From Candidatus Methanomethylicia archaeon (GTDB taxonomy: Archaea; Thermoproteota; Methanomethylicia; CALHIW01): 19,827 nt of DNA. A program made the position numbers and the translations under genes. The DNA is taken from positions 1-19,827 of the forward strand of contig JAWBQF010000040.1 of the NCBI GenBank assembly GCA_038845975.1. The letters are read 5' to 3'. The notes under the pieces are model-generated. The model was not told the origin of the DNA. It did no database searches and saw only the letters and a program-made list of their open reading frames with translations. Numbering within the stretch: the first letter of the stretch is position 1; every line of letters begins with the position of its first letter. This document shows, in pieces, positions 364 through 16,072 of this stretch.

Positions 364-1725
364 GTGACCTTCCTGGTTCGTATCCTTCCAGGCGTAGAGA
401 TACGTGTTGTTAAGGAAATTGTTCCGCAACAACTTCACCCGTCAGGTGTTGTAGGGCTTATTGGAACTGCTGAGAGGGGGCCTGTTTTCGAGCCTACACC
501 TACAACAAGCTATAGGGAATTTATAGATAAGTTCGGATCAAATACTGAATATACACTTATAAAAGATGCTAGACTAGCATTTCTAAATGGTGTTTTTGAG
601 GTTTTCGCTGTTAGGGTTGAAGGGGAGAATGGAAAGGCTGCTGAAGCAACTCTAAATGATAGTGAAGGTAATCCCTCAGTTCTACTTAGAGCAAGAACTC
701 CAGGTCCTAGTGGAAACAATATTGAGGTTATTGTCCGTAAAGGTATTATAGAGAATACTGTTATTATAGAGGTTAGTGATGGTAGGGTTTCTGAAGCTTT
801 TGAGAATTTAACAATGGATTCATCAAGCAGTCAATATCTAGTATCATATATAAACAAGAACTCCAAACTTATACAGGCTGAGGATATAAGTAAGCTACCA
901 TATCCTAGAAGTACACCAGTACCTATTGAAACAAGACTTTCAGGTGGGGTTGCAGGTACAATATCTAAGAGAAGTTTTGAAAAGGCTTTAGAATGTTTAG
1001 AGCTTGAACCAGATATTGATCTTGTTATGGTATGTGACTCCAGTGATCCTGAAGTACATGCATTAGTTGATGCTCACTGTAAAAATATGAGTAGAGACGC
1101 TATGAATAGAATAGGTATTGGAACTGTTGCTAGTGGTGAAAGTGTAAAGGATATTGTAAAGAGGACAGAAGCTCTTGCAAGCGATCGATTCGTTCTCGTT
1201 GCTCCATATGGATGTGCTGGAGCTGTAGCTGGCTTAATAAGTCATCTACCATATTATGAATCACCAACATTCAAAGCAGTTACAGGTATTGCTAGCTTAG
1301 AGAGAAGATACACTCCATCAGAGCTTATGGAGCTTCTGAAAGCAGGTATTCTAGCTTTAGAGATGAGGAGGGGGAGGGGAATTATAGTTGAGAAGGGCAT
1401 TACGACAAGTAAGGAGCAGATAAGCGTTATGAGGATTGCAGACCATGCTGTAAGAGGAGTGAAGAATGTAGCTGAAAACTTTATAGGTACATTAAACAGT
1501 CCTGGTGGAAGACTAGCATTAAGGGAGAAGATAACTGAGTTTCTACTATCTATGGAGAGGGAGGGAGCTATAGTTCCAAGCGTAGACGGTAAGAAGCCCC
1601 CATTCATTGTTGATGTATACTGTTCAGAAATGGATTTCGCGCAGGGAATTGTAAGAGTTGATGTTGCTGTAAGACCTGTAAGAGCTATGGACTACATATA
1701 TACAACAATAACTGTAGAAATATAG
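364..1725 (+). CDS. Contractile tail sheath protein
   Basis: N-terminal LPGVEIRV and GVVGLIGTAERGP..PT...SYREF..KFG; ARTPG..GNNI.V insertion domain; LSGG; C-terminal VRVDVAVRPVRAMDYIYTTITV, all typical of myophage/CIS sheaths. Start is uncertain: GTG 364, or CTG 373 five nt after the GAGGTGA SD. Confidence 0.93.
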   Translation: MTFLVRILPGVEIRVVKEIVPQQLHPSGVVGLIGTAERGPVFEPTPTTSYREFIDKFGSNTEYTLIKDARLAFLNGVFEVFAVRVEGENGKAAEATLNDSEGNPSVLLRARTPGPSGNNIEVIVRKGIIENTVIIEVSDGRVSEAFENLTMDSSSSQYLVSYINKNSKLIQAEDISKLPYPRSTPVPIETRLSGGVAGTISKRSFEKALECLELEPDIDLVMVCDSSDPEVHALVDAHCKNMSRDAMNRIGIGTVASGESVKDIVKRTEALASDRFVLVAPYGCAGAVAGLISHLPYYESPTFKAVTGIASLERRYTPSELMELLKAGILALEMRRGRGIIVEKGITTSKEQISVMRIADHAVRGVKNVAENFIGTLNSPGGRLALREKITEFLLSMEREGAIVPSVDGKKPPFIVDVYCSEMDFAQGIVRVDVAVRPVRAMDYIYTTITVEI

Positions 1726-1738
1726 GAGGTGGTAGTAT

Positions 1739-2140
1739 ATGGCTACTCCCCATGTAGCCTTCGCAAATGTTAGTAGTGTTAAAGCTGATGGAGAGGTTAT
1801 ACCTGGCCTCCAGTCAATAGAGTTTAAAATCATAAGGAATAGACAAAACGTTTACCATATAGGTATTGATGAAAGAGTTGGTGTTGATTATGGTCCACTA
1901 TATGTACATGGAATAATAAGAATAAGATCTACATATCCTAAGTTTGATAGTATGCTATTATCACCACTAGCAGAGGTTAAACCATTCCAGCTTGTTATTG
2001 AGCTTAAGAGAAGAGGACAAGTTGTTAAAACAATATCCTTTGATGACTGCTATCTTGAAGATAAAACATTCACAATGGATGCTAATGGTGTAGGTATAAG
2101 TGTATACACGTTTACAGCTACTAGAATAAGGGAACAGTAG
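1739..2140 (+). CDS. Tail tube protein
   Basis: 133-aa beta-rich protein directly after the sheath (GLQSIEF..., TISFDDCYLEDKTF, YTFTATRIRE); SD GGAGGTGG. Confidence 0.8.
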   Translation: MATPHVAFANVSSVKADGEVIPGLQSIEFKIIRNRQNVYHIGIDERVGVDYGPLYVHGIIRIRSTYPKFDSMLLSPLAEVKPFQLVIELKRRGQVVKTISFDDCYLEDKTFTMDANGVGISVYTFTATRIREQ

Positions 2141-2141
2141 A

Positions 2142-2507
2142 ATGCCTAAAAAACTTACAAAAGACATAATTCTTGAAGGAGCTAGTAGGAGAGAAGTATT
2201 ATACATTAATGAGTATGATGCTGAAGTTATAATAAGACCATTAACAGACGGTGAGCTTTCAAGAATATTCTCCTCAATAGGTAATATACCTCTAAGAGAA
2301 GATGGAACACCAGACGTAAGTAAAATCGATATCTCAAAAAACCTTGAGATCCTAAAGCTAGCTGCTGCAACAGGTCTTGTAGAGCCTAAGCTTACAGTTG
2401 AAGAACTTGAAACCATGAGGTTCGGTGTACCTGAATATATTGGAATGAAGGTTCTTGAGATTAGCGGCGTAGTTAGAAGTGAAGAGGAGGCTAAAAAAAA
2501 AGAATAG
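2142..2507 (+). CDS. Tail assembly chaperone (lambda gpG-like position)
   Basis: 121-aa acidic protein after the tube gene, with a V.IRPLTDGEL motif and a C-terminal EEEAKKK encoded over an A9 run, as seen in tail-assembly chaperones. Confidence 0.75.
   Translation: MPKKLTKDIILEGASRREVLYINEYDAEVIIRPLTDGELSRIFSSIGNIPLREDGTPDVSKIDISKNLEILKLAAATGLVEPKLTVEELETMRFGVPEYIGMKVLEISGVVRSEEEAKKKE
2492..2502 (+). other. Candidate -1 ribosomal frameshift site (A AAA AAA heptamer within T-A9-G)
   Basis: A9 run at 2493-2501 gives an in-frame X XXY YYZ heptamer one sense codon before the TAG stop. The -1 frame is open to 2722. Confidence 0.7.
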
Positions 2508-2722
2508 ATATTGAAAGCTTTGTTAGAAGCCCTGAAGGACTCGAACTAGCAACTCTATGCTTCGACTGTGGATATAAGCTTACTGAAAACCCTCGTGACC
2601 TAACACGGGATCAAATCCTTTTTCTCATTACTGCCCTAGCATACCGAGCTGAACAACTTGCCCAATCAAAACTAGCAGCAGAAGGAATAACAAGAATTGC
2701 TATAACTGAGGGAGAGGAGTAA
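2495..2722 (+). CDS. Frameshift extension (gpT-like) of the tail chaperone; G-T fusion about 193 aa
   Basis: Not in the ORF track. The -1 frame reads RIDIESFVRSPEGLELATLCFDCGYKLTENPRDLTRDQILFLITALAYRAEQLAQSKLAAEGITRIAITEGEE* (73 aa from 2501). It has no in-frame ATG/GTG/TTG, is bounded upstream by TAA 2492, and fills the gap to the next ATG (2725). Confidence 0.75.
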   Translation, partial: KKRIDIESFVRSPEGLELATLCFDCGYKLTENPRDLTRDQILFLITALAYRAEQLAQSKLAAEGITRIAITEGEE

Positions 2723-2724
2723 AC

Positions 2725-4047
2725 ATGAATATTAAAAGTTTACTCAGCAAACTAATTAAGACTAATAGTAGACTTCTACATGAACTCTGGAGTATCCTAT
2801 CTAAACCTATAGAAAGCTTAGCCTCAATATACATAAACATACTTAAAGATATCAGTAGAATACTTAAGAGTATTACTAATCTTAAAGCCCCAACCTTTAC
2901 TCCAAGAGTTGAAGTAGTAAGCCCCCAACTACTTAAGGAATCTATTAAGACTGAGCCAGTAGAAGAAGTTATTAAATCTCTAAGTCTACAGCCCTATATT
3001 TCATATACCGTAAACATCATTAAGGAAGCTAAACCAATCAATAAACCAACTGCTGAAACTATTAGACAACAACCACTATCTATAGTAGCGTTAAGTAATG
3101 TATTGGCTGAATCCATGCTTCCAACATTTACTCTCACCCAAGCTATGGATGGTTATTTATCTGTATCTTCTTATCTTCAGGCTCCGCAAAGAATATTGGA
3201 GGCTTTATCTCAATCTATTCCATATGTTTTTAAGCCGGTTATTCATGAAGTTTCCAGTATAGGTTTAGGTAGGCTTCCCATACCTACCATAACGTCTAGT
3301 GAAATATCTCCAATATTTGAAAAGATTCAATCTATTATACTTCATCCCTATGAGACTATGAAGCTTCCCCACTTTTTAATCTACTCTCAACCATTTGAAT
3401 TGTTTAAATTACCTAGGTCTCCTTTAAAGACTTTACCTGTAGAGTCCTTACATGCTTTCTATCCATTGGTTATAAATATCCCCTATTTATCAATGGGGGC
3501 TCCACCATCCGGATTCTTAATAGATGCTTTAAAGATAATTGGTAACTTTCAAATATTGGGAACATCTTATGTTGGAATGCTACCTTTAATCAACTTGGTT
3601 AGAGATAAATATATGGAGGCTTTCAGTAAAGCTGAGTTAGTTGAACAATATGTTACATTATTAAGTACTATTAGTGGTTTAAGGTTTTACTCAGTGTTAA
3701 GAAGTATGCTTCAGTTAAGACCTTACAACATGGTTGAAAATATTTTAATGAGGGATATGTATATTGTGAGGGGGGAGGAGTTATCACCATTAACCACCAT
3801 GACCATAGAGTCTTTAAGATCTATTAGATCATTTAAATTAGCTGAGGAAGAAGCTCGTAGAGAAATACTTAATACTTCAACTATCCTAGAGTTCCCTTCT
3901 TCAACTACTTTAAGACCAGTAATACATAATATCTTTAACATAACAGTACCTGAAGATGTTGGTGTAGATTTAAGAGAGTTGGAGAGGAGAATAACTCAAA
4001 TTCTTAGTGAGCAGATTCGACGATACTATGGATCATTAAGCTTCTAG
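2725..4047 (+). CDS. Putative tape measure-like protein
   Basis: Occupies the tape-measure position (after the chaperone G/GT, before the tube initiator). The C-terminus IHNIFNITV....DLRELERRITQILSEQIRR resembles tape-measure C-termini. The body is low-complexity and S/P/I/L-rich. Called mainly on synteny. Confidence 0.55.
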   Translation: MNIKSLLSKLIKTNSRLLHELWSILSKPIESLASIYINILKDISRILKSITNLKAPTFTPRVEVVSPQLLKESIKTEPVEEVIKSLSLQPYISYTVNIIKEAKPINKPTAETIRQQPLSIVALSNVLAESMLPTFTLTQAMDGYLSVSSYLQAPQRILEALSQSIPYVFKPVIHEVSSIGLGRLPIPTITSSEISPIFEKIQSIILHPYETMKLPHFLIYSQPFELFKLPRSPLKTLPVESLHAFYPLVINIPYLSMGAPPSGFLIDALKIIGNFQILGTSYVGMLPLINLVRDKYMEAFSKAELVEQYVTLLSTISGLRFYSVLRSMLQLRPYNMVENILMRDMYIVRGEELSPLTTMTIESLRSIRSFKLAEEEARREILNTSTILEFPSSTTLRPVIHNIFNITVPEDVGVDLRELERRITQILSEQIRRYYGSLSF

Positions 4048-4055: not shown

Positions 4056-4565
4056 ATGTATATAAAGCTTGACGATATTGAGCTTATGAAGCGTGTTGAT
4101 GAGAATGGAGTTATTAGAGAGATTAGAAGTATACGTAATGTTTCCTTATCCGGTAGGAGACGTATTGTCGAGTTGAAAATACCTGGTCTTCAAGGAAATA
4201 TACTTCAAGATTTAGGTAGGGATCCATTATTAATCTATGTTGAGGGGCTGCTTACAGGTATTAATGCTAAAAATACGTTTCAGGAGATAAGCTCAAAGTT
4301 TAAGCTTGGTAAACCTATACAGTTCCTATCTGATATACCGTCTATAAGTGATGTTTCTGAAGTTGTAATAGAAAGCTTAAAAGCATATCTTATTAGTGGA
4401 GAGCCTTTAAGCTACTGGTATACATTAGTGTTAAGAGAGCATAAAAGTAGTTCTCAGCGGAAATCTGAGATTCCAAGTCAAGAGAAGGAGGCGAAGATAG
4501 AAACTGAGGAGTTAACAAAGCAGATACGTAGAGAGGTTGAAGAGAAGTTTAAGATTAGTGGTTAA
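4056..4565 (+). CDS. Tube initiator / baseplate-tube connector (Mu gpN DNA_circ_N or P2 gpU-like)
   Basis: GRRRIVELKIPGLQGNILQDLGRDPLLIYVEG matches the R....PG..G...QDLGR pattern; YTLVLRE near the domain end; canonical position. Confidence 0.7.
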   Translation: MYIKLDDIELMKRVDENGVIREIRSIRNVSLSGRRRIVELKIPGLQGNILQDLGRDPLLIYVEGLLTGINAKNTFQEISSKFKLGKPIQFLSDIPSISDVSEVVIESLKAYLISGEPLSYWYTLVLREHKSSSQRKSEIPSQEKEAKIETEELTKQIRREVEEKFKISG

Positions 4566-4566
4566 T

Positions 4567-5526
4567 ATGCTGTATCCAAACTATAGATTAGAAATAGGGT
4601 CTAAAGAATTCACTATTAATTCTCAATCTATTACTAGTATTACTGTAAAGCTTGGTTTAGGACCTAAAATCGATAGCTGTAGGGTTCTTCTAGTAGGGGA
4701 TGATGCAGCATCCAGTATTGGTAGGGGTGATAATGTTAATGTTTATCTTGGATATGATGATGATCTAGTTAAGGTTTTTACAGGTATTGTAGATATTGTC
4801 GATGTAGGGTATTCTCAGGTTAAGGTGGATAGTTTAAGTCCTAGTGTTAATCTTCTTAAGCTAAGACTAAATAGAGTATATAATAATCAAACAGCTGGAC
4901 AGATTGTTTCAGACCTATTATCTACAGCCGGAGTTAGTAGAGTTGAGGTAATGGATGGTTTAAGCTTTCCAATATATGTTATTGACGATCGTTTAAACGC
5001 CTACGAACATATAGAGAAGCTTGCTAGAAGATGTGGATTTGTATTCTATACATCTAGTGATGGAGGATTAATATTTAAAAAATATGTGGAAGATGGGAAA
5101 CACACGCTTAAGTATGGTGAAGACATATTAGCTATCAATATGGTTGAAATGGTTGAAGCCTATGGTTGCATTAAGGTTTTCGGTGAAAGTCCTTCAAGCA
5201 TGATGGGTAGTGAAACTTATCACTGGCTAACGAAGAGGGAAATTGTAGGTGAATCTGGAAGTGGACATACACTTATAATACAGGACTTCGCCATTAAGGA
5301 TAAGGGAACAGCTGAGAATGTTGCTCAGAATGTTTTAGATAATGTTAAGAAGTCATTTAGCATTATGTTAAGAATAGTTGGGAATGCTAATATAAAGGTT
5401 AACGATACTGTTGAGGTTAAGGATATGCCTGAGGAGAAGCTTAACGGCTTATTTCAAGTTGTAGATGTTGAACACTATTTAGATAAGATGAATGGCTTCA
5501 CATCAATTATTACTTGTAGGAGGTAG
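4567..5526 (+). CDS. Baseplate hub protein (gp27/P2 gpD/Mu gp44-like)
   Basis: VYLGY....KVFTG.VD, Y.NQTAGQIVSDL, IEKLARRCGF.FY, L.YGEDIL, GNANIKVND.VEV, NGLFQVVDVEHYLD...GFTS.I. Start moved to ATG 4567, just after the upstream stop at 4565; the track's 4537 start overlaps the previous gene. Confidence 0.85.
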   Translation: MLYPNYRLEIGSKEFTINSQSITSITVKLGLGPKIDSCRVLLVGDDAASSIGRGDNVNVYLGYDDDLVKVFTGIVDIVDVGYSQVKVDSLSPSVNLLKLRLNRVYNNQTAGQIVSDLLSTAGVSRVEVMDGLSFPIYVIDDRLNAYEHIEKLARRCGFVFYTSSDGGLIFKKYVEDGKHTLKYGEDILAINMVEMVEAYGCIKVFGESPSSMMGSETYHWLTKREIVGESGSGHTLIIQDFAIKDKGTAENVAQNVLDNVKKSFSIMLRIVGNANIKVNDTVEVKDMPEEKLNGLFQVVDVEHYLDKMNGFTSIITCRR

Positions 5527-5528
5527 CT

Positions 5529-6248
5529 ATGTCTATAGTTGAAATGATTAGGAGAATAGCTGAGAATGAAGTTAGAAAAATACATACTGTTGAGCTCGGT
5601 ATTGTAACTTCTGTTTTCCCACATTCAACACCAAGTGATAAGGATAACTATGAATGTAATGTAAGACTGAAAAACATGAATATTGAGCTTCAAAGAGTTC
5701 AAATAGCTACCCAAGTAATAGGCTTAGCGGAGCCTCCGAGAGTTGGAGATCTTGTTCTTGTAGCCTTTGTTAATGGTGATGTAAACATGCCTGTAGTTAT
5801 AGGTAGACTATACAATGATGAGGATCGACCACCAGTAAGCAACCTAGAGGAAATTGTTTATATTCCACCATACACGAAGAAAACCGATCGTAGAAGAATA
5901 TATATTGAGTTTCCTGAAGGTATGATTTTAAGAATTAAGGATGATGAGGTTATGGTTAAGGCTGGTGAGACAAGAGTTATTATTCAACATAATGGTGATG
6001 TTGTTATAGAGTCTAAAGCAAACATTACAGTAAAGGCTGAAGGCGATACCTCAATAAGATCTAAGGGGAATCTATCAATATCTGCTTCAAACATAGAGAT
6101 AAACAGTGAGAAAAATCTAAGCATTAAATCAGGATCTGATATGAAGCTTACTTCAGATGCAAATGCTGAGTTTACTTCTAGAAGCCAAATGAAGGTTGAG
6201 GCGAGTGCGCAGATGAGGATAAGAGGTGCAACAGTACATATAAACTAG
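5529..6248 (+). CDS. Baseplate spike protein (gpV/gp5-like OB fold + beta-helix)
   Basis: PRVGDLVLVAFVNGD.N.PVVIGRLY OB-fold motif, then about 8-residue beta-helix repeats (ITVKAEGD, TSIRSKGN, LSIKSGSD) ending in GATVHIN. Confidence 0.9.
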   Translation: MSIVEMIRRIAENEVRKIHTVELGIVTSVFPHSTPSDKDNYECNVRLKNMNIELQRVQIATQVIGLAEPPRVGDLVLVAFVNGDVNMPVVIGRLYNDEDRPPVSNLEEIVYIPPYTKKTDRRRIYIEFPEGMILRIKDDEVMVKAGETRVIIQHNGDVVIESKANITVKAEGDTSIRSKGNLSISASNIEINSEKNLSIKSGSDMKLTSDANAEFTSRSQMKVEASAQMRIRGATVHIN

Positions 6249-6256: not shown

Positions 6257-6673
6257 ATGGATAGGGATGTTTTAAAAACAGATTTAAGGTTAAGGCTTGA
6301 TATGGTAGGAGCTGATTTAACTGTTCGTGAAGGTGATTTGGAAACTATAAGCGATGAGGATAATCTTGCTCAAGCTATAATACATAGGTTAATGACGAGT
6401 AGAGGTGAGCTTACTGAGCTCGGTCATCCAGATTATGGTTCAAGACTAGATGAACTTATAGGTGAACCTAATAATGAGAGGACAAGAAATAGAGCTAAAA
6501 CACTTGTTCTTGAATGTTTGGCTCAAGAATCTAGAATTAAGGAGATTGTAAGTGTGAATGTTAATACAAATCCTCTAGATCCTAACCGTATTGATATTGA
6601 GATAGTTGTAGTACCTATTGATAGTAGAAGAACTTTAAGTATTACCTACCCGTTACGTCTTGAGGTGGCTTAA
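6257..6673 (+). CDS. Baseplate wedge gp25/GPW-like sheath initiator
   Basis: DNLAQAIIHRLMTSRGEL..LGHPDYGSRL.ELIGEPN...L.QESRI; SD AGGTGA. Confidence 0.92.
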   Translation: MDRDVLKTDLRLRLDMVGADLTVREGDLETISDEDNLAQAIIHRLMTSRGELTELGHPDYGSRLDELIGEPNNERTRNRAKTLVLECLAQESRIKEIVSVNVNTNPLDPNRIDIEIVVVPIDSRRTLSITYPLRLEVA

Positions 6674-9134: not shown

Positions 9135-9782
9135 ATGCCTAGATTTAAACCTATAATTAGAAAGCCTGGTGAACTTATTAGAGCTGAAGACTGGAATAGA
9201 ATTCAGGAGGAGATTAGTCAAGACCTTATGGAGCTTGATGGAAAGATAACTCAGCTAAAACAATATATAGATAGCCTTACTGAAACAACTACGATTCTAA
9301 ATCCTGCAAGCCCAATAGGTAAACTCTATAGTTTAAATGAGAATATACCTGGAGAAAGGTTAAACTATATGGCTACTGTTGTAGGACCAATAACAGGGCA
9401 ATGGGCATTAGAGAAGGGGAGAATTGGGGATTTATGTAGGTTTGGATTAGCAACACATCTTGAATCTCTTGACTATTGGGCTGGAGCAGAAGATGGTGAT
9501 AGGAAAGTTTTAGAAATTGTTTTCGAATATATAGATGGTACGCTAGCTACTGTTAGCGGCTTATTCATACATGAATGTTCAAAGCTAAAACCTAAAGGAA
9601 CTGATAACCCATATCTTGAATACCTTCTCTCACCAAATGAGAGGGTATGGTATAGGTATCGGGTAAGAAATCCAAACCCTGAAAAAGAAGTACTTAACAT
9701 TACATTTAGAAAAATAGATCCAGCATGCATACTAAAAATAGGAAACGTTATACACTATAAGTCAAAAATATCAGCTTTATAG
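9135..9782 (+). CDS. Putative short tail fibre / receptor-binding or fibre-attachment protein
   Basis: N-terminal KPGELIRAEDWNRIQ motif, as at fibre N-termini, then a short coiled coil and a beta domain; follows the gpI-like gene. Confidence 0.5.
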   Translation: MPRFKPIIRKPGELIRAEDWNRIQEEISQDLMELDGKITQLKQYIDSLTETTTILNPASPIGKLYSLNENIPGERLNYMATVVGPITGQWALEKGRIGDLCRFGLATHLESLDYWAGAEDGDRKVLEIVFEYIDGTLATVSGLFIHECSKLKPKGTDNPYLEYLLSPNERVWYRYRVRNPNPEKEVLNITFRKIDPACILKIGNVIHYKSKISAL

Positions 9783-9791: not shown

Positions 9792-10460
9792 TTGTTTATA
9801 GAGATTGAAGATAAAATCATTAATATATTAAGAGAGAAAGTTAAAGAAGTACCTATTGAAAACATAACTATAGGTGGAAGAGTAAATAGTAAACCATCAA
9901 TCACGGTTTCAAACACTACGTTTAAAATTAGAAAGATAAGTTTAGATGATGAGGAAGGTAATGAGATAATTGAAGTTTTTAATGGTGATGGTGCTAATAA
10001 AATATTTAAGCTAAAGGAGAAACCTATGGGTATTATTATTGTAGAATCCCCGAAAGGAAGGGTAATGAATGAAATCGATGACTACAATATAAACTATAAT
10101 GAGGGACTAATAGTTTTCCGTAATCCACCATTAAAAGGTAGAAAAAACATAATTATAAGATACATATCCTCAAAGAAGAGACTAGTAGTAGTGAAATTAA
10201 AGCTGAAAGCAAAATACAATATTAACATAGTAGCTCAGAGTAGAGAGCAGATGGATAGTCTTACCGAAGCAGTAATAAAATCCCTTACTGAATCGGAGGA
10301 TGAATTTGAGAGGATAGGAGCTATTCTTAAACCTGTTAAAGGGGAATATATAGCTGAAAACCAAATTAACCTAACATATCTAGCTGAAATCGAACTTAAA
10401 GTAGAGAAATCTATACCTCCAATAGAGAAGATAATAGTTAGTGAAAAACATGGTGTATAA
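9792..10460 (+). CDS. Putative tail terminator / cap protein (Pvc16/DUF4255-like) with an inserted beta domain
   Basis: N-terminal EIEDKIINILRE, PSITV, then YNINIVAQSREQMDSLTEAVIKSL and LTYLAEIEL...PPIE.I.V. TTG start after AGGTAGGG. Confidence 0.5.
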   Translation: MFIEIEDKIINILREKVKEVPIENITIGGRVNSKPSITVSNTTFKIRKISLDDEEGNEIIEVFNGDGANKIFKLKEKPMGIIIVESPKGRVMNEIDDYNINYNEGLIVFRNPPLKGRKNIIIRYISSKKRLVVVKLKLKAKYNINIVAQSREQMDSLTEAVIKSLTESEDEFERIGAILKPVKGEYIAENQINLTYLAEIELKVEKSIPPIEKIIVSEKHGV

Positions 10461-10949
10461 ATGAGTCAAACTAAACTACCCTATGGACCTGTAAAGCTTG
10501 TTGTTGATGCTATAGGCTTCCAAGACGGTAGATTAATACAGTTTGAAATATGGATGAAGAAAGGTGAAGAGGAGAAACTAATAAACCAGGTAAATGGAGT
10601 AATAAGAGGAGGGAGGGGGGAAGCCTTATGGATACCTCCACAAGAAGAGTATAGAGTTAAACTATCAAGAGAAATATCTACTAGTGAAGATGAGGAAATT
10701 GAAGAATACTATTTTAAAGCTAAAATCGATGATTTAGAAGTAAAGTCTCCACCTCTTATATTTACTTATCCTCTTGAAATATATCTTGAAGATGAAGATG
10801 GAAAACCAATAGATGGAGCTAAATACACCATAACGTTTTCAAATGGAAGCAAAAAAGAGGGAGTACTTCAAAAAGGATATGCAAAAATAGAGAACGCTCC
10901 AAAGGGAAGGTTTAGAATAGAGGTAGAAGGATATAGATTAAAGGAGTAG
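10461..10949 (+). CDS. Putative effector adaptor with a C-terminal transthyretin-like / carboxypeptidase-regulatory-like domain
   Basis: C-terminal LEIYLEDEDGKPIDGAKYTITFSNGSKKEGVL.KGYAKIENAPKGRFRIEV resembles TTR-like extensions of T6SS VgrG/PAAR proteins; N-terminal beta-sandwich. Confidence 0.5.
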   Translation: MSQTKLPYGPVKLVVDAIGFQDGRLIQFEIWMKKGEEEKLINQVNGVIRGGRGEALWIPPQEEYRVKLSREISTSEDEEIEEYYFKAKIDDLEVKSPPLIFTYPLEIYLEDEDGKPIDGAKYTITFSNGSKKEGVLQKGYAKIENAPKGRFRIEVEGYRLKE

Positions 10950-10953: not shown

Positions 10954-13182
10954 ATGAGTGAAAACATAGTAGCATGCATAAAAAACAGAGCAACCAAAGC
11001 CTTAGGAATACTTACCAGAGATGAAACCTATAGTGTAAGTCTTAAGCTAGGTAAAATCAAAAGTAGTATAGTTAAGCTTCAGAAGAAAACAGGAAATGGC
11101 TGGAAGGATATTAGTGTAGAGATTGACCTCCTCCAAACTAAAGATGAATTAAGGATAATTGTTGAGGATAATACAGGTTGCGGTGCTAAACTCTCTAGAG
11201 GTAACTTTTACATGCAAAATAGTAATCTAATAAAGGATATTCTTAATTTCTCAATCCCTCTTAAATTAGAGATAAGAAAATTTCATGGAGATAAGCAGCT
11301 ACCAGTTGAAGGAAGTGATGATATTCGGGCAGTAATTACAGTTATAGACCTTAGAGAAGATATAAATCAGGTTAAAGGTGTATTTTCCAGTTCCTCTAAA
11401 AACTCTGGTAAAGAATTTATTACTTTATTTAATGAAATAATACGTAACTTATCCCCGCATGATAACTGTGCTAAGACGTTAGCTCCTAAAGTTCTAGAAG
11501 CCAGATGTAGAATAAGTAAGATAATAGCAGACAGTATTCTTTTCTACTCTAATAGTAATAATAGGCTTTCTAAGTATTCTAAAGAACTAAGATTTAGTAA
11601 TAGTGTATTTGTAAATCAATGGCAGGAGGAGAAAGATGGTAATGGTATTAAATTTATTACTGCTAATATAGATTTCCGTCCACCACCAATACTTGGTGAT
11701 AATTACGCTTTTAGGATTTCTATAGAAAAGGGTCCTGACTACATTTCATCTAAACAATTCATTAAGTATAAGAATGGAAAGGATTGCTATGAAACTCCTA
11801 AAATTACTATTTGGAGAAAGATTAGGCTTAAACTGTTTGTTCAAGGAAGTAATCCAAGTGATATAAGCGTATATAATCAGATCAACTGGAGTGAGGTTAA
11901 ACAAGCTTTCAATGATGCATACATAGAGATAGAATATCCAACTACACCTCATCCTGTCGACTCTTCTCATACACATCCTCATTCACAAGTACAAGATTAT
12001 TTCTACATTATTCCTACAGATCAGTGGATTAACTATTTAGATAAATATGTATATAAAATATGGAATAATAAGGCATGGGCTTATTTAAAAAAGAATAACC
12101 TTTGTCAACTTCGAAAAGACCTTCAACAATATTCATTTCCTGCATCTTTAGCGCCAAGCGATAATAACCCTCCAACATCCTGGGATTTCTTAGGAATCTT
12201 AGCTTATGAAATCGCTAAAGATGTGATGTTGAGAGAGGAGGGAAAGACTGCTAAGCCTAATGATGCGGTATCAACTCAAGATTGCTTCTACGTTTTAGTA
12301 TGTAGACCCCCCAGTCAAAATAGTAGAATTTGGGGTGAGTTTATAGGAGGTAAGCTCTTCTACGTAGTGACACGAACAGGAAAAGATACTACAAAGTGGC
12401 TTGCACATGAAATGGGGCATGCATTATCTCTAAATCATGGTGCAACAGCATTTACGGATACTGTTTCTGGTTCTGGTATGGTTTATCCTGTTATACTTAG
12501 ATCTATGAAGAATGGTGAGGAAGGCCCAGACTGGGATTTGCATGATAGTGAGGATATGACTTCATGCATTATGTCTTATGAAAACGACTATCATGGTACT
12601 GGTGATAGTTACCACCCTAATTGGCATCGGGTTAATTGGCATTTCTGTGGGGTTTGTTTACTATTACTTAGATTCTATGATGAGGGGAGATTAAGAAAAA
12701 GTGATGTTTTCAGAAGAATTCAATACACACTTAGAAATGGAGGAAGTATAAAGATAGCTTATGCTGGTGTTGATATTTCTAAGGAGAAGCTGATAAAACC
12801 TGATGGTAGTACTGTTGAGTCTAAAAATATAGTGCTACAAAATATATCTTTTAAATCTCCTCTTAAAATGAACCAAGGAGATACATATATACTTCTTGTC
12901 CTTTACCCTAGTGAGGGAGTTATAAACAATCTTGGATATGACCACTATAAGGATGTATCCACACATCCTAGAGGGCAATGGAGATTTCTAGATCCAAATA
13001 CTAATAAGGAAGTACCTAGAAATAAAAGAGTTGTCAATATAAGTAGAGTTCGTTTTCCTGATGATACATTGTTAACGGAAATTGAAGCTGTAAGAAAGGG
13101 TCGAAATATTATTTCGTTTGGAATTCAAGGAAGTGGTAATTCGTTTATTTGGAGTGATCCATTAACTGTAGAGGTAGAATGA
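10954..13182 (+). CDS. Zinc metalloprotease (metzincin-like), candidate CIS cargo
   Basis: HEMGHALSLNH (12406-12438), Met-turn-like CIMSY (12565-12579), HFCGVC; no obvious signal peptide; sits within the tail operon. Confidence 0.7.
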   Translation: MSENIVACIKNRATKALGILTRDETYSVSLKLGKIKSSIVKLQKKTGNGWKDISVEIDLLQTKDELRIIVEDNTGCGAKLSRGNFYMQNSNLIKDILNFSIPLKLEIRKFHGDKQLPVEGSDDIRAVITVIDLREDINQVKGVFSSSSKNSGKEFITLFNEIIRNLSPHDNCAKTLAPKVLEARCRISKIIADSILFYSNSNNRLSKYSKELRFSNSVFVNQWQEEKDGNGIKFITANIDFRPPPILGDNYAFRISIEKGPDYISSKQFIKYKNGKDCYETPKITIWRKIRLKLFVQGSNPSDISVYNQINWSEVKQAFNDAYIEIEYPTTPHPVDSSHTHPHSQVQDYFYIIPTDQWINYLDKYVYKIWNNKAWAYLKKNNLCQLRKDLQQYSFPASLAPSDNNPPTSWDFLGILAYEIAKDVMLREEGKTAKPNDAVSTQDCFYVLVCRPPSQNSRIWGEFIGGKLFYVVTRTGKDTTKWLAHEMGHALSLNHGATAFTDTVSGSGMVYPVILRSMKNGEEGPDWDLHDSEDMTSCIMSYENDYHGTGDSYHPNWHRVNWHFCGVCLLLLRFYDEGRLRKSDVFRRIQYTLRNGGSIKIAYAGVDISKEKLIKPDGSTVESKNIVLQNISFKSPLKMNQGDTYILLVLYPSEGVINNLGYDHYKDVSTHPRGQWRFLDPNTNKEVPRNKRVVNISRVRFPDDTLLTEIEAVRKGRNIISFGIQGSGNSFIWSDPLTVEVE

Positions 13183-13186: not shown

Positions 13187-14626
13187 ATGAGTAGCCGTAA
13201 CCTATTATTATTGCTAGGTATTGATAGGGATTTATTTGTTAGGTTTGAATCTATTGTAGTTCATGTTTCTCTTGTAAATAATGGTTTGAAGCCTATAGCT
13301 GTTGAGGATCTTACAGCTACTAATAATCCTCTTTTCTTCAGGGCTGTTAACAATTTTGGGGGTAGGTTTAAGGGTTCTCTTCAAAGCTTCTGGATGAGGG
13401 ATGGAGTTGGTGAAGTTCCTGTAAGGGGGAAATCCATGATTACCTTAAACCCTAAGGAAGCTAGGGAAATTCACGTTGACTTGATTAAAATCTTTAATGT
13501 GTTGCCTGAAGGAAATTATAAGGTCTATGCCTACTATAGGCTAGGTACTTTATCCTTTCTTAAATCTAATATTATCAGTTTTAGGATTGTTAAGTCTAAG
13601 CCTATATATTCTATAACTTTCCAGGATTATGCTAGGAACAATATGATTCCTATTCGTACTTCCTGGATTAATGAGGGGGAAGATGGATTCTATATTTTCC
13701 TAATGGATTGTAGCTATAATCTACCTTCAAATATAATTTCTAACCGTAGAATAGCAAAGATTAATGGTTTAAGAGATATTACTTATTCTATTCCATCTGT
13801 ATATGGGCAGAATGTAGAGCATGTATTGTGGGTTGATAATGATACCTTATATGTAGCAGAGATAATTAATGGGGGCTTAGGAAATATTAGGAGGATCAAG
13901 AGACCTATAGGATATATTCTTAATCCTCCACTTACAACTGAGGATGGTGAATTAAGATTCTTAACATTTCTAGAAGGGCTTGTTAAGCTTGTAAGAATTC
14001 CCTTTAAGGGTGAGGTTATGGTTGATGATATTCTTAAGCTTAGAGGCTTACTAGATAAGTACTCCATTGTTTTCGATATGGATTCCAACCCATATTTAGT
14101 ATATAATTTAGACCGTAAAATCTATTACTTAAAGATTAATATATATGATCAGGCTAATATTGATAGGAGAGTAGACTTATTGGCTGAAGCTAATAATCCT
14201 GTTTTAAATCTTCATCTTTCAAATGCATGGAGATACGATGAGGATAGTTACCGTATATCATTAAACTATGTAGTTCAAGAGAATAATAAGCTATGCTCCT
14301 ATCTTATTGATGTAGATAATGGTAAGCATTTATCCCATGCATATACTCCACTTGAGGATATGAAGCTAAAGCTTATTCAAGTCATTCTTGACTATGACTA
14401 CAATCCCTACTTTCTTCTTCAAGATAGCTTAGGTACTCTATGGTTTAAATCATATGATGGTGAGCTTATAAAGGCTACTGGAGAGGATGAAAGATGTTCA
14501 GGTAATGTTAGCTATCCAGTAATGCTAATATCATCCAAATACAGCCGTAAATACTGTATATATCTAAGATATGTAAAGAATGAATCAACATTCACTTATA
14601 GAAAATTAAAAAGATTAATTGACTAG
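13187..14626 (+). CDS. Hypothetical protein (Ig-like N-terminus, possible beta-propeller); candidate immunity protein or chaperone
   Basis: 479-aa ORF 4 nt downstream of the protease. V.VSLVNNG..PI.V...LNPKEA...LPEGNYKV...SN pattern, then repeated short beta strands. Confidence 0.55.
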   Translation: MSSRNLLLLLGIDRDLFVRFESIVVHVSLVNNGLKPIAVEDLTATNNPLFFRAVNNFGGRFKGSLQSFWMRDGVGEVPVRGKSMITLNPKEAREIHVDLIKIFNVLPEGNYKVYAYYRLGTLSFLKSNIISFRIVKSKPIYSITFQDYARNNMIPIRTSWINEGEDGFYIFLMDCSYNLPSNIISNRRIAKINGLRDITYSIPSVYGQNVEHVLWVDNDTLYVAEIINGGLGNIRRIKRPIGYILNPPLTTEDGELRFLTFLEGLVKLVRIPFKGEVMVDDILKLRGLLDKYSIVFDMDSNPYLVYNLDRKIYYLKINIYDQANIDRRVDLLAEANNPVLNLHLSNAWRYDEDSYRISLNYVVQENNKLCSYLIDVDNGKHLSHAYTPLEDMKLKLIQVILDYDYNPYFLLQDSLGTLWFKSYDGELIKATGEDERCSGNVSYPVMLISSKYSRKYCIYLRYVKNESTFTYRKLKRLID

Positions 14627-14659
14627 TAGCTTAGTGATGTGAATAGTTAGTTTAGAATT

Positions 14660-15172
14660 TTACTTTACAGATTCCCATCTTGGGTTTGTTATTATTGTGT
14701 ATGGTTTCCATTTAGGATTTATAAGTTTCTTCTCCATTATTGGTGGTGGTGTTGGCGGTTTAGGTATTGGTGCTGTTGTTTCCCCTATAAATACTTTCCC
14801 TGTTGCTACTACCTTCCCTACTGGAGCATCTAATGGATCATTACATGTTATTGCTGTATCTCCACTTCTTGCTGCTGGTTTACCATTTATAAACACTCCT
14901 ATACTTCCAACTATTATTTTCCCCTGGTTTGATGGTGGCTTCTGAAATGATCCTCCTGGTGGAATATGTGGAGGCGTATTTATAGCTATACTATTAACTG
15001 TTGCTGCAGGCTTACCCTCTATGAAAACATCACTACTAAGATTACTATTAATTATACCATTGAATGGTAAAGTTACTGGTGTTGGTACAGGTCCTGTAGG
15101 TGAAGGCATAAGTACTATATGTATATCCTGTGCAACTATTCTATCCCCCGCTTTAGCTGCTGGTTGTCCCAT
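14660..15172 (-). CDS. PAAR-domain spike tip protein with a Pro-rich C-terminal extension
   Basis: Three PAAR-type motifs (QPAAKAGD, VFIEGKPAATVNS, VFINGKPAARSGD); candidate metal ligands H (DIHIV), H (PPHIP) and C (TCND). Confidence 0.92.
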   Translation of the reverse strand: MGQPAAKAGDRIVAQDIHIVLMPSPTGPVPTPVTLPFNGIINSNLSSDVFIEGKPAATVNSIAINTPPHIPPGGSFQKPPSNQGKIIVGSIGVFINGKPAARSGDTAITCNDPLDAPVGKVVATGKVFIGETTAPIPKPPTPPPIMEKKLINPKWKPYTIITNPRWESVK

Positions 15173-15175
15173 AGC

Positions 15176-16072
15176 TTAGCCTTTAGGCTGTGCTGCTCCA
15201 CATTTTGGACAGTATGATGCAACTAGGTTTATTACTGAACCGCAGTTTGGACATGTTTTTGTATCAGGTCCTCCTGGAGGCTGCTTCCCACATTTTGGGC
15301 AGAATAAAGCATCACTAGGCATTACAGATCCGCAATGCATACAGTACCTTCTTGCAGGCTCTACAGGTTCAGGAGGCTTAGGTGCTGCTGGAGGTGGAGA
15401 TGGCTTTCTTCTTCTTAGAAGAATAGCAGCTAATAATATAACCACAATAGCAATAACGGCTAAAATAATGTATGGTAGGAAGCTTAATACATCAAATCCT
15501 CTTGGAGGTAGTGCTACTGTAGTTTTGGTTGGAGTTGTTGCTGTAATTGGGGTTGTCGAAGCTGCTCTAACAATCAACATTAATGTTGTACTTCTTGTTA
15601 ATGTTCCAGAAACTCCAGATATAACTATATTATACGTTCCCTCCCCAACGCTTTTCCCTACGGATATGCTAACTGTAGCGCTTACCTTACCATTAGATGG
15701 AGGAGTAACACTTGATGGAGAGATTGAAACCGTTATCCCACTTGGAGAGCTTGATGATAGTGAAACAGAACTTGAAAAACCAAGTAGAGAACTTACTGTA
15801 ACTGTTACGCTCCCCCTTTCACCCTGTATAATTGTAATTGATGATGGATTAACCTCTAATGTAAAGGATGGTATTGGAGTAATTAAGGTGGGGAGAGTAA
15901 TGGGGGGAGAAATAGTTGGGGGAATGGTGGGTTTTATTGGAGAAATGAAAGTAATAGTTGCTTGAGGATTTATATTGCTTAATGAGTTCAACGGTGAAAC
16001 AGCTATTATTAATACGATAATAACAGTAAGGATTAAAACACTTAAAACTTTTCCTCCAATATTTTTCCTCAT
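15176..16072 (-). CDS. Membrane protein: signal/TM, Pro/Thr linker, Ig-like domain, TM, double zinc ribbon
   Basis: Hydrophobic N-terminus; FTLEVNPSSITIIQG...GTYNIVISG Ig-like domain; TM followed by RRRK; CMHCG..CPKCG..CPNCG..CPKCG. Confidence 0.85.
   Translation of the reverse strand: MRKNIGGKVLSVLILTVIIVLIIAVSPLNSLSNINPQATITFISPIKPTIPPTISPPITLPTLITPIPSFTLEVNPSSITIIQGERGSVTVTVSSLLGFSSSVSLSSSSPSGITVSISPSSVTPPSNGKVSATVSISVGKSVGEGTYNIVISGVSGTLTRSTTLMLIVRAASTTPITATTPTKTTVALPPRGFDVLSFLPYIILAVIAIVVILLAAILLRRRKPSPPPAAPKPPEPVEPARRYCMHCGSVMPSDALFCPKCGKQPPGGPDTKTCPNCGSVINLVASYCPKCGAAQPKG

What the first reader, a model, noticed from the sequence alone, without database searches (positions are those of the whole stretch)
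364..16072. Compact, capsid-less contractile injection system in an archaeon, with a phage-like tail plus T6SS-like tip and cargo genes
Seen: a tightly coupled run (TAATG/ATGA overlaps, gaps mostly under 15 nt) of sheath, tube, chaperone, tape-measure-like, initiator, hub, spike, gp25, J, gpI-like, fibre-like and terminator-like genes. An adaptor, a protease and a partner follow, with PAAR on the other strand. The operon starts at its own TATA box. No capsid, portal, terminase, integrase, lysis gene, TssJLM/ClpV or Afp15-like AAA+ ATPase is recognisable between the flanking genes. Known: Afp/PVC-type eCIS usually have duplicated tube genes, a fused VgrG-like spike and an ATPase; R-type tailocins lack cargo enzymes. 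Inference: this is a Mu/P2-like minimal tail (one sheath, one tube, split hub and spike) adapted for protein delivery, possibly an under-described archaeal CIS subtype.
Basis: partly seen in the sequence, partly recalled or inferred. Interest (0 to 1): 0.9.

Follow-up and report, generated by a model that had tools for sequence, protein, structure and literature searches.

The report
Head-less contractile injection system in archaea
This hot-spring archaeon carries a complete phage-tail "syringe" gene cluster without any virus head genes, and the same cluster recurs in many other archaea of its phylum, so it looks like a little-studied archaeal injection weapon rather than a dead virus.

Summary
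Window 364-16072 encodes a tightly packed contractile-tail module: sheath, tube, chaperone, tape measure, hub proteins, spike, gp25, J, I-like, fibre-like and terminator proteins. A prealbumin-like adaptor, a metzincin-like protease and its partner follow. PAAR and a zinc-ribbon membrane protein sit on the other strand.

The window cannot show that heads are missing, because it is a whole contig that ends in a MITE-like repeat just upstream of the sheath promoter. Relatives can show it. The same cluster occurs in 22 archaeal genome loci with cellular genes upstream. One is a closed 1.5-Mb genome where housekeeping genes bound the island. Capsid, portal and terminase families give no hit in the own genome or in three of four relatives tested.

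It fails the tests for Afp/PVC-type eCIS and T6SS membership. Gene order matches phage Mu.

New points:
- A conserved A9 recoding site gives a G/GT-like chaperone extension that fills the apparent 217-nt gap.
- The zinc-ribbon membrane proteins keep a conserved cytoplasmic tail but have variable outer domains.
- PAAR is fused to the adaptor domain in one relative.
- The cargo region varies between genomes.

Verdict: a real, domesticated CIS and a new variant of a known kind. How it acts, cell-anchored or released, is unresolved.

The parts
1..312 (.). MITE-like repeat at the contig end. Not part of the system; it explains the assembly break.
   Evidence: blastn finds more than 100 copies at 70-95% identity across most contigs of G000. 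ORF 3-308(-) has no Pfam or PHROG hit. DNA-run contigs also start near 286.
331..338 (+). Archaeal TATA box (TTTAAATA), about 30 nt before the sheath start codon.
   Evidence: Sequence read. A TTA[AT]A[AT]A heptamer occurs in 21 of 23 upstream regions against a 3% background.
364..1725 (+). Tail sheath (453 aa, GTG start).
   Evidence: PF04984 5.4e-19, phrog_279 8.3e-56. More than 119 protein clusters share 62-78% identity.
1739..2140 (+). Tube protein (133 aa). Assigned by position and weak hits.
   Evidence: Always follows the sheath gene, at 42-83% identity. Of 15 family members, 6 match phrog_290 and 6 match phrog_365, both tail proteins. No Pfam, NCBIfam or PDB sequence hit.
2142..2507 (+). 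Tail assembly chaperone, short (G-like) product.
   Evidence: Position matches Mu gp41. 47-81% identity across 14 relatives. Ends in an A9 run at 2493-2501.
2495..2722 (+). Open frame in the -1 frame: the T-like extension of the chaperone, reached by slippage on the A9 run.
   Evidence: 75-aa open frame with no start codon of its own. A conserved 71-81-aa extension is present in 23 of 23 loci, in the -1 frame in 18 and the +1 frame in 5.
2725..4047 (+). Tape measure protein (440 aa). Assigned by position.
   Evidence: Position matches Mu gp42. Only the ends are conserved and the length varies between loci. No family hit.
4056..4565 (+). Baseplate hub / tube-initiator-like protein (169 aa).
   Evidence: DUF6046 at 1.2e-4, below cut-off. 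Of 15 family members, 6 match phrog_184 (baseplate hub) and 4 match phrog_33 (Dit).
4537..5526 (+). gpD / Mu P-like baseplate hub. The likely true start is the ATG at 4567.
   Evidence: PF05954 1.9e-6 (27.8 bits, cut-off 30.1), phrog_196 4e-11, VgrG_rel N-terminal part. Homologues align from residue 9-14 onward.
5529..6248 (+). gpV-like spike (OB fold plus beta-helix).
   Evidence: PF04717 1e-6, phrog_9992 3e-12, VgrG C-terminal parts of NF033848 and TIGR03361.
6257..6673 (+). gp25-like sheath initiator.
   Evidence: PF10934 6e-11, PF04965 5e-7, phrog_975 2e-18.
6673..8238 (+). Baseplate J-like wedge protein.
   Evidence: PF04865 2.5e-28, phrog_6 1.4e-65. TIGR02243 scores only 50.8 bits against a cut-off of 155.8.
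8235..9134 (+). gpI / Mu gp48-like baseplate protein.
   Evidence: phrog_1160 8.6e-21. Position as in Mu.
9135..9782 (+). Short fibre / receptor-binding-like protein: N-terminal helix plus a jelly-roll beta-sandwich.
   Evidence: AF2 model with pLDDT 91. Foldseek matches CBM29/16/61, tailspike distal domains and phage receptor-binding proteins; E 1.8e-5 to 1e-3, TM-score at most 0.54. Only 27 representatives among 1.8 billion proteins.
9792..10460 (+). Tail (sheath) terminator / cap.
   Evidence: AF2 model with pLDDT 81. Foldseek matches phage 812 neck at 2.9e-7, the E217, Pa193 and Pam3 necks, the PVC cap, the R2 pyocin collar, and the Streptomyces, Anabaena and Algoriphagus CIS caps. Atlas lead to SP10_terminator at 0.92.
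10461..10949 (+). PAAR-associated adaptor-like protein with a prealbumin-like C-terminal part (lead only).
   Evidence: Pfam SpaA at 0.0096. Fused in frame to PAAR in relative G004, L031:7968-8945(-).
10954..13182 (+). Metzincin-like zinc protease (742 aa). Candidate cargo.
   Evidence: HExxHxxxxxH and CxMSY are invariant in 4 of 4 homologues. 28-30% identity in G001-G003, so it evolves fast. No family or PDB hit.
13187..14626 (+). Partner of the protease (479 aa), fold unknown. Could be an immunity, inhibitor or loading factor.
   Evidence: Always paired with the protease, including in a paralogous pair at C22:19207-22780 that lies away from any tail gene. No family or PDB hit.
14660..15172 (-). 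PAAR spike-tip protein with a 40-aa proline-rich C-terminal extension.
   Evidence: PF05488 2.4e-10, NF033420 2e-7. 64-75% identity in 7 relatives.
15176..16072 (-). Type I membrane protein: signal/TM segment, Ig-like outer domain, TM helix, cytoplasmic double zinc ribbon.
   Evidence: PF12773 and PF13240. Hydrophobic segments at residues 9-27 and 201-219. The zinc ribbon is 35-84% identical in 12 linked homologues, while the outer domains vary.

Best explanation
This is a domesticated, head-less contractile injection system (CIS) derived from a Mu-like myovirus tail. It is carried as a roughly 13-16-kb chromosomal island in scattered members of the Thermoproteota (Nitrososphaeria, Bathyarchaeia and others).

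Shown here:
- A full set of tail and baseplate genes under an archaeal promoter.
- No head genes at the locus in relatives.
- No capsid, portal or terminase family hits in the own genome or in three of the four relatives tested.
- Strong conservation across genomes.

Inferred working:
1. The tube polymerises on a baseplate made of the gpD-like hub, gpV spike, gp25 and the J and I-like proteins.
2. The tape measure sets the tube length. It is handled by a chaperone made in two forms through slippage on an A9 run.
3. The sheath assembles around the tube and the terminator caps it.
4. Contraction drives the PAAR-tipped spike, with cargo, into a target.

Cargo differs between genomes. It is probably hooked to PAAR through the prealbumin-like adaptor. 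In this genome the candidate is a metzincin-like protease with its partner.

The linked zinc-ribbon membrane protein has a conserved cytoplasmic tail and a variable outer domain. I take it to dock or trigger the machine at the cell membrane, which would be a cell-associated, T6SS-like or CisA-like mode. I put that mode at about 50%. A released, tailocin-like particle is about 30%. Other modes, such as intracellular firing, make up the rest.
For: Gene set.

Mu order.

Head-less:
- The window is a whole contig ending in a MITE, so relatives were used.
- In 16 loci the 2.7-10 kb upstream held 142 ORFs. Of these, 57 have homologues elsewhere in G000.
- Of the 10 conserved upstream ORFs scanned, 9 hit cellular families (PfkB, MGMT, HycI, Rce1-like, PALP, Nramp) and 1 had no hit.
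- In closed genome G009 the island at 1369273-1382258 lies between KARI and acetolactate synthase on one side and YhfC and oxaloacetate decarboxylase on the other.
- PF05065, PF03237, PF04860 and PF03354 gave 0 hits over cut-off in G000, G009, G001 and G002. G002 gave one sub-cut-off PF03237 match (21.1 bits, cut-off 22) about 280 kb from its cluster.
- The controls rang, and G005 showed terminase and capsid hits more than 700 kb from its cluster or on other contigs.

Conservation:
- Sheath at 62-78% identity in 119 further clusters.
- 22 genome loci.
- The same order from sheath to terminator in 10 loci, and rearranged in 2.
- PAAR and the zinc-ribbon gene are linked in G001-G005 and G009.
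- Structural proteins (50-83% identity) are more alike than flanking housekeeping proteins (23-53%).
- Patchy spread: 10 of 400 other genomes sampled from the phylum.

Belongs to this genome: the MITE is shared with most contigs.

Recoding site.

Membrane protein topology and variable outer domains.

Cargo:
- Metzincin motif.
- PAAR-adaptor fusion and an S8 subtilase with a PG_binding_1 domain beside it in G004.
- No genes between terminator and PAAR in G005 and G009.

Hint of expression: near-identical contigs from an RNA library on 607-883, 1019-1310, 1586-1813 and 15548-15703.
Against: - No particle, protein or firing has been observed.
- Tube, tape measure and adaptor rest on position or weak hits.
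- Nothing shows that the protease is loaded or injected. A paralogous protease-partner pair stands alone on C22, so the pair may have a CIS-independent role.
- The upstream side of this very locus is unassembled.
- Pfam head models could miss very divergent archaeal capsids, although they did detect proviruses in G005.
- G000 is a 93% complete MAG with 4.3% contamination.
- The RNA-library contigs could come from DNA carry-over.
- The fibre-like protein has a carbohydrate-binding-like fold, which fits a released particle better than an anchored one.
Confidence: 0.8

Rival explanations
1. Released particle. The cluster makes a free, tailocin-like or eCIS-like particle. The particle binds target-cell surface glycans through the fibre-like protein and injects PAAR-linked cargo. 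The zinc-ribbon membrane protein then serves release, immunity or regulation rather than anchoring.
For: - The fibre-like protein has a lectin/CBM-like jelly roll like phage receptor-binding proteins.
- The tape measure and terminator give a fixed-length capped particle.
- The gene set is closest to phage tails and R-type tailocins.
Against: - No release or lysis gene is recognisable. This is weak evidence, because archaeal release genes are poorly known.
- The fibre-like protein is unusually conserved for a receptor binder (44-75% identity).
- A conserved cytoplasmic zinc-ribbon tail on membrane proteins with variable outer domains is hard to explain for a free particle.
Confidence: 0.3
2. 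Decaying prophage remnant. A tail module is left after the head and replication genes were lost, and it has no present function.
For: - Phage-like gene order and phage-family hits.
- A MITE lies next to the promoter.
- Patchy distribution.
- A few relatives show split genes: the hub in L011, J in L013, and the 4056-like gene in L022.
Against: - All 17 cluster ORFs are intact here.
- The head-less layout recurs in 22 loci from several classes, with conserved promoter, recoding site, PAAR and membrane protein.
- Independent decay would not keep 50-83% identity or stop at the same boundaries.
Confidence: 0.07
3. Tail module of a live virus or satellite whose head genes lie elsewhere in the genome or are borrowed from a helper.
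For: - The upstream side of this locus is unassembled.
- One IMG/VR contig carries the cluster.
- G005 has proviruses elsewhere.
Against: - No capsid, portal or terminase family hit over cut-off in G000, in closed G009, in G001 or in G002.
- The IMG/VR contig shows only tail genes plus the zinc-ribbon gene.
- The nearest isolated phage has terminase, portal and capsid genes within 8.6 kb upstream of its sheath gene, unlike the archaeal loci.
Confidence: 0.05
4. Mis-binned bacterial or viral contig, not archaeal DNA.
For: G000 is a MAG with 4.3% contamination.
Against: - The left-end MITE and right-end repeats are shared with many other contigs of G000.
- A PaREP1 gene lies on the contig.
- There is an archaeal BRE/TATA-type promoter.
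- All 22 related loci come from records labelled archaeal, several on contigs of 0.4-1.7 Mb.
Confidence: 0.01

Closest known systems
Mu-like / P2-like myovirus tails and R-type tailocins (e.g. R2 pyocin)
   Same: - Gene order from sheath to fibre as in Mu.
- Single sheath and single tube.
- Hub (gpD-like) and spike (gpV-like) are separate genes.
- A tape measure and a chaperone with an alternate-frame extension.
- Terminator fold like phage necks and the R2 pyocin collar.
- PDB sequence matches rank phage sheaths first: 9ezm at 6e-12, and the phiCD508-type 9gb1 series at 5e-7.
   Different: - Sheath identity to isolated phages is only 23-33%.
- No head genes.
- It carries PAAR, a conserved membrane protein and protease-type cargo candidates. 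From recall, R-type tailocins lack these.
- The terminator lies after the baseplate genes rather than before the sheath gene.
- The host is archaeal and the promoter is archaeal.
Afp/PVC/MAC-type extracellular CIS (dbeCIS lineages I and II; eCIStem)
   Same: - Head-less phage-tail cluster with cargo genes at the operon end.
- Cap fold similar to the PVC, Algoriphagus and Anabaena caps.
- J-like protein weakly related to TIGR02243.
   Different: - No gp19-type tube family, no Pvc16_N family, no AAA+ ATPase and no fused VgrG-like spike.
- One tube gene rather than two.
- It has the phage-type recoded chaperone.
- The main texts of the surveys report archaeal loci from one archaeal phylum only. 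Their supplements could not be read.
Haloarchaeal T6SS-like CIS of Halogeometricum borinquense (clade IIa; PMC11566945, passages read)
   Same: - An archaeal CIS.
- A conserved, linked membrane protein proposed as an anchor, and contact-dependent antagonism, are the working model there. A linked membrane protein is present here too.
   Different: - According to that paper, the system belongs to eCIS clade IIa, has Cis1-16, and its nearest relatives are in Bacillota.
- The present cluster fails eCIS family tests and looks like a separate domestication of a Mu-like tail.
- The membrane proteins were not compared directly because I had no sequence of Hbor_38620.
Streptomyces cytoplasmic CIS with membrane protein CisA (PMC12237407, abstract seen in a search listing)
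   Same: A CIS that needs an accessory membrane protein to act at the membrane. This is the closest analogy for the zinc-ribbon protein.
   Different: - A different CIS lineage. The Streptomyces sheath matches at only 2.6e-5 in PDB (8bky/9gtp).
- Homology of the membrane proteins was not tested.
- The function there is regulated cell death, which is not shown here.
Bacterial T6SS tip complex (VgrG-PAAR with transthyretin-like adaptor domains)
   Same: - PAAR cone.
- VgrG-like parts.
- A prealbumin-like domain found fused to PAAR in a relative.
- Variable effector genes next to the tip genes.
   Different: - No TssB/C-type sheath, Hcp, TssJLM, TssK or ClpV hits.
- It has a tape measure and a terminator, which T6SS lacks (recalled).

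Membership tests
Afp/PVC-type eCIS | Tube proteins of the T4 gp19 / Afp1-Afp5 family, usually in two or more copies | tested here: not met
   The tube ORF has no Pfam hit at E<=0.01 and no NCBIfam hit at E<=0.1. There is one copy in the genome.
Afp/PVC-type eCIS | Afp15-like AAA+ ATPase in the cluster | tested here: not met
   No AAA+ family hit on any of the 19 window ORFs. None among the 10 flank ORFs scanned in G009.
Afp/PVC-type eCIS | Afp16 / Pvc16_N-type cap | tested here: inconclusive
   No Pfam hit on 9792-10460. The fold does resemble the PVC, Algoriphagus, Anabaena and Streptomyces caps, and phage terminators match better.
Afp/PVC-type eCIS | Fused VgrG-like spike (Afp8) and Afp11-type baseplate protein (TIGR02243) | tested here: not met
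   Hub and spike are two ORFs that match different halves of VgrG models. TIGR02243 scores 50.8 bits against a cut-off of 155.8.
Type VI secretion system | TssB/TssC sheath, Hcp tube, TssJLM membrane complex, ClpV | tested here: not met
   None of these families hit. Only gp25/TssE-like, VgrG-like parts and PAAR are shared.
Integrated myovirus (Caudoviricetes provirus) | Major capsid protein, portal and large terminase linked to the tail genes | tested here: not met
   No hit over cut-off for PF05065, PF03237, PF04860 or PF03354 in G000, G009, G001 and G002. The controls were positive. Cellular genes lie upstream in related loci. The PF06074 search was uninformative because its control rang nowhere.
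R-type tailocin | Head-less chromosomal myovirus tail cluster with fibres and a lysis cassette, killing without cargo | tested here: inconclusive
   A head-less tail cluster and a fibre-like protein are present. No lysis genes are recognisable, and archaeal ones may be unknown. PAAR and cargo-like genes are present, unlike classical tailocins (recalled).
G/GT-type recoded tail assembly chaperone | Slippery site near the 3' end of the gene between tube and tape measure, with an overlapping alternate-frame ORF that runs up to the tape measure gene | tested here: met
   A9 run at 2493-2501 and an open -1 frame at 2495-2722. The feature is conserved in 23 of 23 loci. Production of the fusion protein was not tested.
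Haloarchaeal clade IIa CIS | Cis1-16 gene set with an Hbor_38620-type anchor | not tested
   No sequences of that system were at hand. The plasmid search returned only bacterial records.

The most novel reading that the evidence does not exclude
A second, independently domesticated archaeal contractile weapon. It would be a Mu-like tail turned into a cell-anchored injection system specific to Thermoproteota and their neighbours.

In this reading, type I membrane proteins serve as interchangeable sensor-anchors. Their conserved cytoplasmic zinc-ribbon tail docks the baseplate or tip, and their variable outer domains (Ig, NHL propeller, fn3) read the target.

Cargo would be swappable and PAAR-linked. 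In some hosts it would be aimed at bacteria, as suggested by the subtilase with a peptidoglycan-binding domain.

Assembly would depend on programmed slippage on an A9 run. Because the needed shift is -1 in some genomes and +1 in others, the slippage would more likely be transcriptional than ribosomal.
Probability: 0.3. Interest if true: 0.85.

Novelty: new variant of a known kind. Interest (0 to 1): 0.7.

Why it matters
Contractile injection systems are well studied in bacteria. In archaea, only a haloarchaeal system has been shown to work (PMC11566945).

This cluster puts a different, phage-Mu-like CIS into ecologically important archaea, including soil ammonia oxidisers (Nitrososphaera) and sediment Bathyarchaeia. 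So far their cell-cell conflict tools are almost unknown.

It offers three things:
- A compact 13-gene core for structural and engineering work.
- A testable candidate for how a CIS is coupled to an archaeal envelope.
- A clean case of conserved recoding on a poly-A run in archaea.

Tried and rejected
- PDB sequence searches with profiles found nothing significant. This covers the tube, chaperone, 4056-like, terminator, protease and partner families.
- hhalign of the tube, chaperone and 4056-like profiles against Mu M, gp41 and gp43 gave probabilities below 2%. The targets were single sequences, so this is not informative.
- NCBIfam gave no hit over any cut-off.
- The Portal_Mu (PF06074) search rang in no control genome and says nothing.
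- The plasmid search with the sheath protein gave 10 bacterial records at 24-32% identity and no archaeal plasmid. It cannot place the cluster relative to the haloarchaeal system.
- The viral-contig scan gave one 15-kb contig (L033) with the same tail genes, the zinc-ribbon gene and no head gene in its 2.2 kb upstream. The contig is too short to decide anything.
- No tRNA gene and no flanking direct repeats were found in the window. A tRNA-Arg lies near the cluster in G002 and G003 only, so no integration site was defined.
- Complex prediction of PAAR with the zinc-ribbon tail gave no answer, with scores of 0.00 and 0.00.
- Read laying could not bridge the left MITE in any of three DNA runs. 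Parts of the cluster without RNA-library cover are not evidence of silence.
- Mis-binning was considered and rejected.
- I did not build sheath or J trees against eCIS, T6SS or tailocin references, because reference sequences could not be brought in except for a few phage and plasmid hits at 23-33% identity.
- Print searches found no paper describing this cluster. Makarova et al. 2019 (mBio), which catalogues archaeal conflict systems, is not held, and supplements were closed. An earlier listing of these loci therefore cannot be excluded.
- A note of mine gives the A9 run as 2491-2499. The correct place, read, is 2493-2501.

Full report
What the window is. The 19,827-base window is a whole contig (C40) of a 2.77-Mb, 76-contig assembly. 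The assembly is rated 93% complete with 4.3% contamination. Bases 1-312 are a short repeat with more than 100 copies at 70-95% identity spread over most contigs, and the right end is another repeat. ORF 3-308 on the minus strand hits no family. The 'left IS' is therefore better called a MITE-like element, and it is where the assembly stops. Contigs of three DNA runs from other samples also start near base 286. The shared repeats tie the contig to this genome.

The genes. The ORF map matches the finding.
- Clear family hits name the sheath, spike, gp25-like initiator, baseplate J, an I-like baseplate protein, PAAR and a double zinc ribbon.
- The gpD-like hub is weaker: 27.8 bits against a cut-off of 30.1, with phrog_196 at 4e-11.
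- VgrG models match the hub ORF with their N-terminal part and the spike ORF with their C-terminal part, so hub and spike are split.
- An AlphaFold model of 9792-10460 (pLDDT 81) matches phage neck/terminator proteins, and also the caps of PVC, R2 pyocin, and the Streptomyces, Anabaena and Algoriphagus CIS. A language-model lead to SP10_terminator agrees.
- A model of 9135-9782 (pLDDT 91) shows a long N-terminal helix and a jelly-roll sandwich. It resembles carbohydrate-binding modules, tailspike distal domains and phage receptor-binding proteins, at modest scores.
- That fibre-like family is tiny, with 27 representatives among 1.8 billion proteins.
- The tube is assigned by position and weak PHROG tail hits: 6 of 15 members each for phrog_290 and phrog_365.
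- 4056-4565 shows weak baseplate-hub and Dit hits: 6 and 4 of 15 members.
- The tape measure is assigned by position and its variable length.
- The order of the first eleven genes is that of phage Mu.

A missed feature. The only large gap (2508-2724) is coding.
- The chaperone ORF ends GCT AAA AAA AAA GAA TAG, with the A9 run at 2493-2501.
- A 75-codon frame without a start codon is open in the -1 frame from 2495 to 2722, two bases before the tape measure gene.
- In 23 of 23 loci an A run sits 3-21 nt before the stop, followed by a well conserved 71-81-residue extension. The run is A9 in 20 loci, A7 in 2 and A10 in 1.
- The extension is in the -1 frame in 18 loci and the +1 frame in 5.
- This is the G/GT-type chaperone arrangement of phage tails.
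- The run is kept while the required shift differs. That points to slippage on the homopolymer, possibly by RNA polymerase. This step is inferred.

Is it head-less? The window cannot tell, so I used relatives.
- The sheath has 119 further listed protein clusters at 62-78% identity.
- It has 22 loci in archaeal genome records: 12 labelled Nitrososphaeria or Nitrososphaerota lineages, 6 Bathyarchaeota/-ia, and 1 each Hadarchaeota, Thermoprotei, Geoarchaeota and unclassified archaeon. Several sit on contigs of 0.4-1.7 Mb.
- Ten loci show the same order from sheath to terminator and two show it rearranged. The rest are cut short, or showed only the first genes.
- In 16 loci the 2.7-10 kb upstream held 142 ORFs. 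Of these, 57 have homologues elsewhere in this genome.
- Of the 10 conserved upstream ORFs scanned, 9 hit cellular enzyme or transporter families and 1 had no hit.
- A closed 1.52-Mb genome of the same class (G009) has the cluster at 1369273-1382258. It lies between ketol-acid reductoisomerase and acetolactate synthase on one side and YhfC and oxaloacetate decarboxylase genes on the other.
- Whole-genome searches for the HK97 capsid, two terminase families and the portal family found nothing over cut-off in G000, G009, G001 and G002. G002 gave one sub-cut-off Terminase_6N match (21.1 bits against a cut-off of 22) about 280 kb from its cluster.
- Control genomes rang. G005 showed capsid and terminase genes more than 700 kb from its cluster or on other contigs.
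- By contrast, the nearest isolated phage (23% sheath identity) has terminase, portal and capsid genes within 8.6 kb upstream of its sheath gene.

Accessory genes.
- PAAR (64-75% identity) and the zinc-ribbon gene lie next to each other beside the cluster in G001-G005 and G009.
- The zinc-ribbon gene is also linked in L008, L018, L019 and L033.
- In all six proteins inspected the layout is the same: an N-terminal signal or anchor, outer domains, one strong TM helix, then a cytoplasmic part ending in the double zinc ribbon. Five of the six also have a Big_1-like domain before the ribbon, and the window's protein has a proline-rich linker instead.
- The outer domains differ: Ig-like, NHL propeller, fn3, SprB, InlB-type. 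The ribbon is 35-84% identical. G004 has three such genes in a row.
- A conserved inner tail combined with a variable outer part is what one expects of a membrane dock or sensor for a cytoplasmic machine. This reasoning is by analogy with the haloarchaeal anchor and with Streptomyces CisA (abstract in the listing).

Cargo.
- Between the terminator and PAAR, G000-G003 carry three genes: a 162-aa protein with a weak prealbumin-like hit, a 742-aa protein, and a 479-aa partner.
- The 742-aa protein has an invariant HExxHxxxxxH and a CxMSY turn, a metzincin-type signature named from recall. The protease and partner are only 28-33% identical between genomes.
- G004 instead has PAAR fused in frame to the 162-aa-type domain. 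It is followed by a 1119-aa S8 subtilase with a peptidoglycan-binding domain and an 848-aa unknown.
- G005 and G009 have nothing there.
- A paralogous protease-partner pair also stands alone on contig C22.
- The fusion supports a PAAR-adaptor link. Actual loading of the protease is inferred.

Spread and expression.
- The sheath was found in 3 of 40 relatives sampled and in 10 of 400 other genomes sampled from the phylum.
- Structural proteins are more alike between genomes (50-83%) than flanking housekeeping proteins (23-53%). This fits horizontal spread of a constrained island.
- The DNA occurs in hot-spring metagenomes from several studies.
- One RNA library holds near-identical short contigs on the sheath, the sheath-tube junction and the zinc-ribbon gene. 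This is a hint of transcription, not proof.
- A TATA heptamer precedes the sheath gene in 21 of 23 loci, against 3% of random windows.

Comparison with known systems.
- It works like a CIS, but it fails the membership tests for Afp/PVC-type eCIS: no gp19-type tube, no Pvc16_N, no AAA+ ATPase, no fused VgrG, and TIGR02243 far below its cut-off.
- It also fails the tests for T6SS.
- PDB sequence matches rank phage sheaths above the Streptomyces CIS sheath. They also rank above chain 9qgl, which I take to be the PVC sheath because it is the neighbouring entry of the PlPVC1 cap 9qgn.
- The main texts of three surveys report archaeal CIS from one archaeal phylum.
- A sheath study noted homologues in Thaumarchaeota, Bathyarchaeota and Crenarchaeota assemblies without analysing the loci.
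- The haloarchaeal system is placed by its authors in eCIS clade IIa, next to Bacillota.
- I found no paper on this cluster. One key catalogue and all supplements were out of reach.

Verdict. This is a real, conserved, head-less contractile injection system of phage-Mu-like ancestry in Thermoproteota. It is a new variant of a known kind. The mode of action, the cargo and the recoding mechanism are open and directly testable.

Noticed in passing
window 1-312 and about 100 other places in G000: A roughly 315-bp MITE-like repeat family with more than 100 copies at 70-95% identity. It breaks many contigs, and this one lies about 20 nt from the sheath promoter.
   Followed up: partly
window 16455-16620 and 19706-19827: Two further short repeat families shared with other contigs: 7 or more contigs for the first, and C7, C45, C21, C56 and C11 for the second. 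The second forms the right contig end.
   Followed up: no
G000 contig C22:19207-22780: A paralogous pair (710 aa plus 486 aa, about 29% identical) of the protease and its partner, with no tail genes nearby. The pair is therefore a module in its own right.
   Followed up: partly
L031:7968-8945(-) (G004): PAAR fused in frame to a domain homologous to window ORF 10461-10949. This links the two proteins functionally.
   Followed up: partly
L031:8957-16251(-) (G004): Three tandem zinc-ribbon membrane proteins (768, 817 and 565 aa) with different outer domains (Ig/SprB, NHL propeller, NHL/fn3) and near-identical cytoplasmic tails.
   Followed up: partly
L031:4179-7538(-) (G004): A 1119-aa S8 subtilase with a PG_binding_1 domain (24.6 bits, cut-off 23) next to the PAAR fusion. 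It is a possible anti-bacterial cargo in a Bathyarchaeota genome.
   Followed up: no
L018 and L019 (Nitrososphaera sp.), L010, L012, L016: In soil Nitrososphaerales the cluster is rearranged. In L018 and L019 the baseplate genes are inverted upstream of the sheath gene. L010, L012 and L019 carry two copies of the 4056-like gene.
   Followed up: no
L007 (Bathyarchaeia) 16155-16223: No separate gpV-like spike gene was detected between the hub and gp25 genes in this locus, unlike in the others.
   Followed up: no
window 4537-4567: The listed TTG start of the hub ORF overlaps the previous gene by 29 nt. Homologues align from about residue 10, so the ATG at 4567 is the likelier start.
   Followed up: partly
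window 16973-17380 and 17594-19636: A PaREP1-family gene and a NuoL/MrpA-type antiporter subunit flank the cluster on the right. Both have paralogues elsewhere in the genome.
   Followed up: no
window 607-1813 and 15548-15703: Contigs from a sediment metatranscriptome library are 97.6-100% identical to parts of the sheath gene, the sheath-tube junction and the zinc-ribbon gene. The sample type differs from the hot-spring DNA holders.
   Followed up: partly
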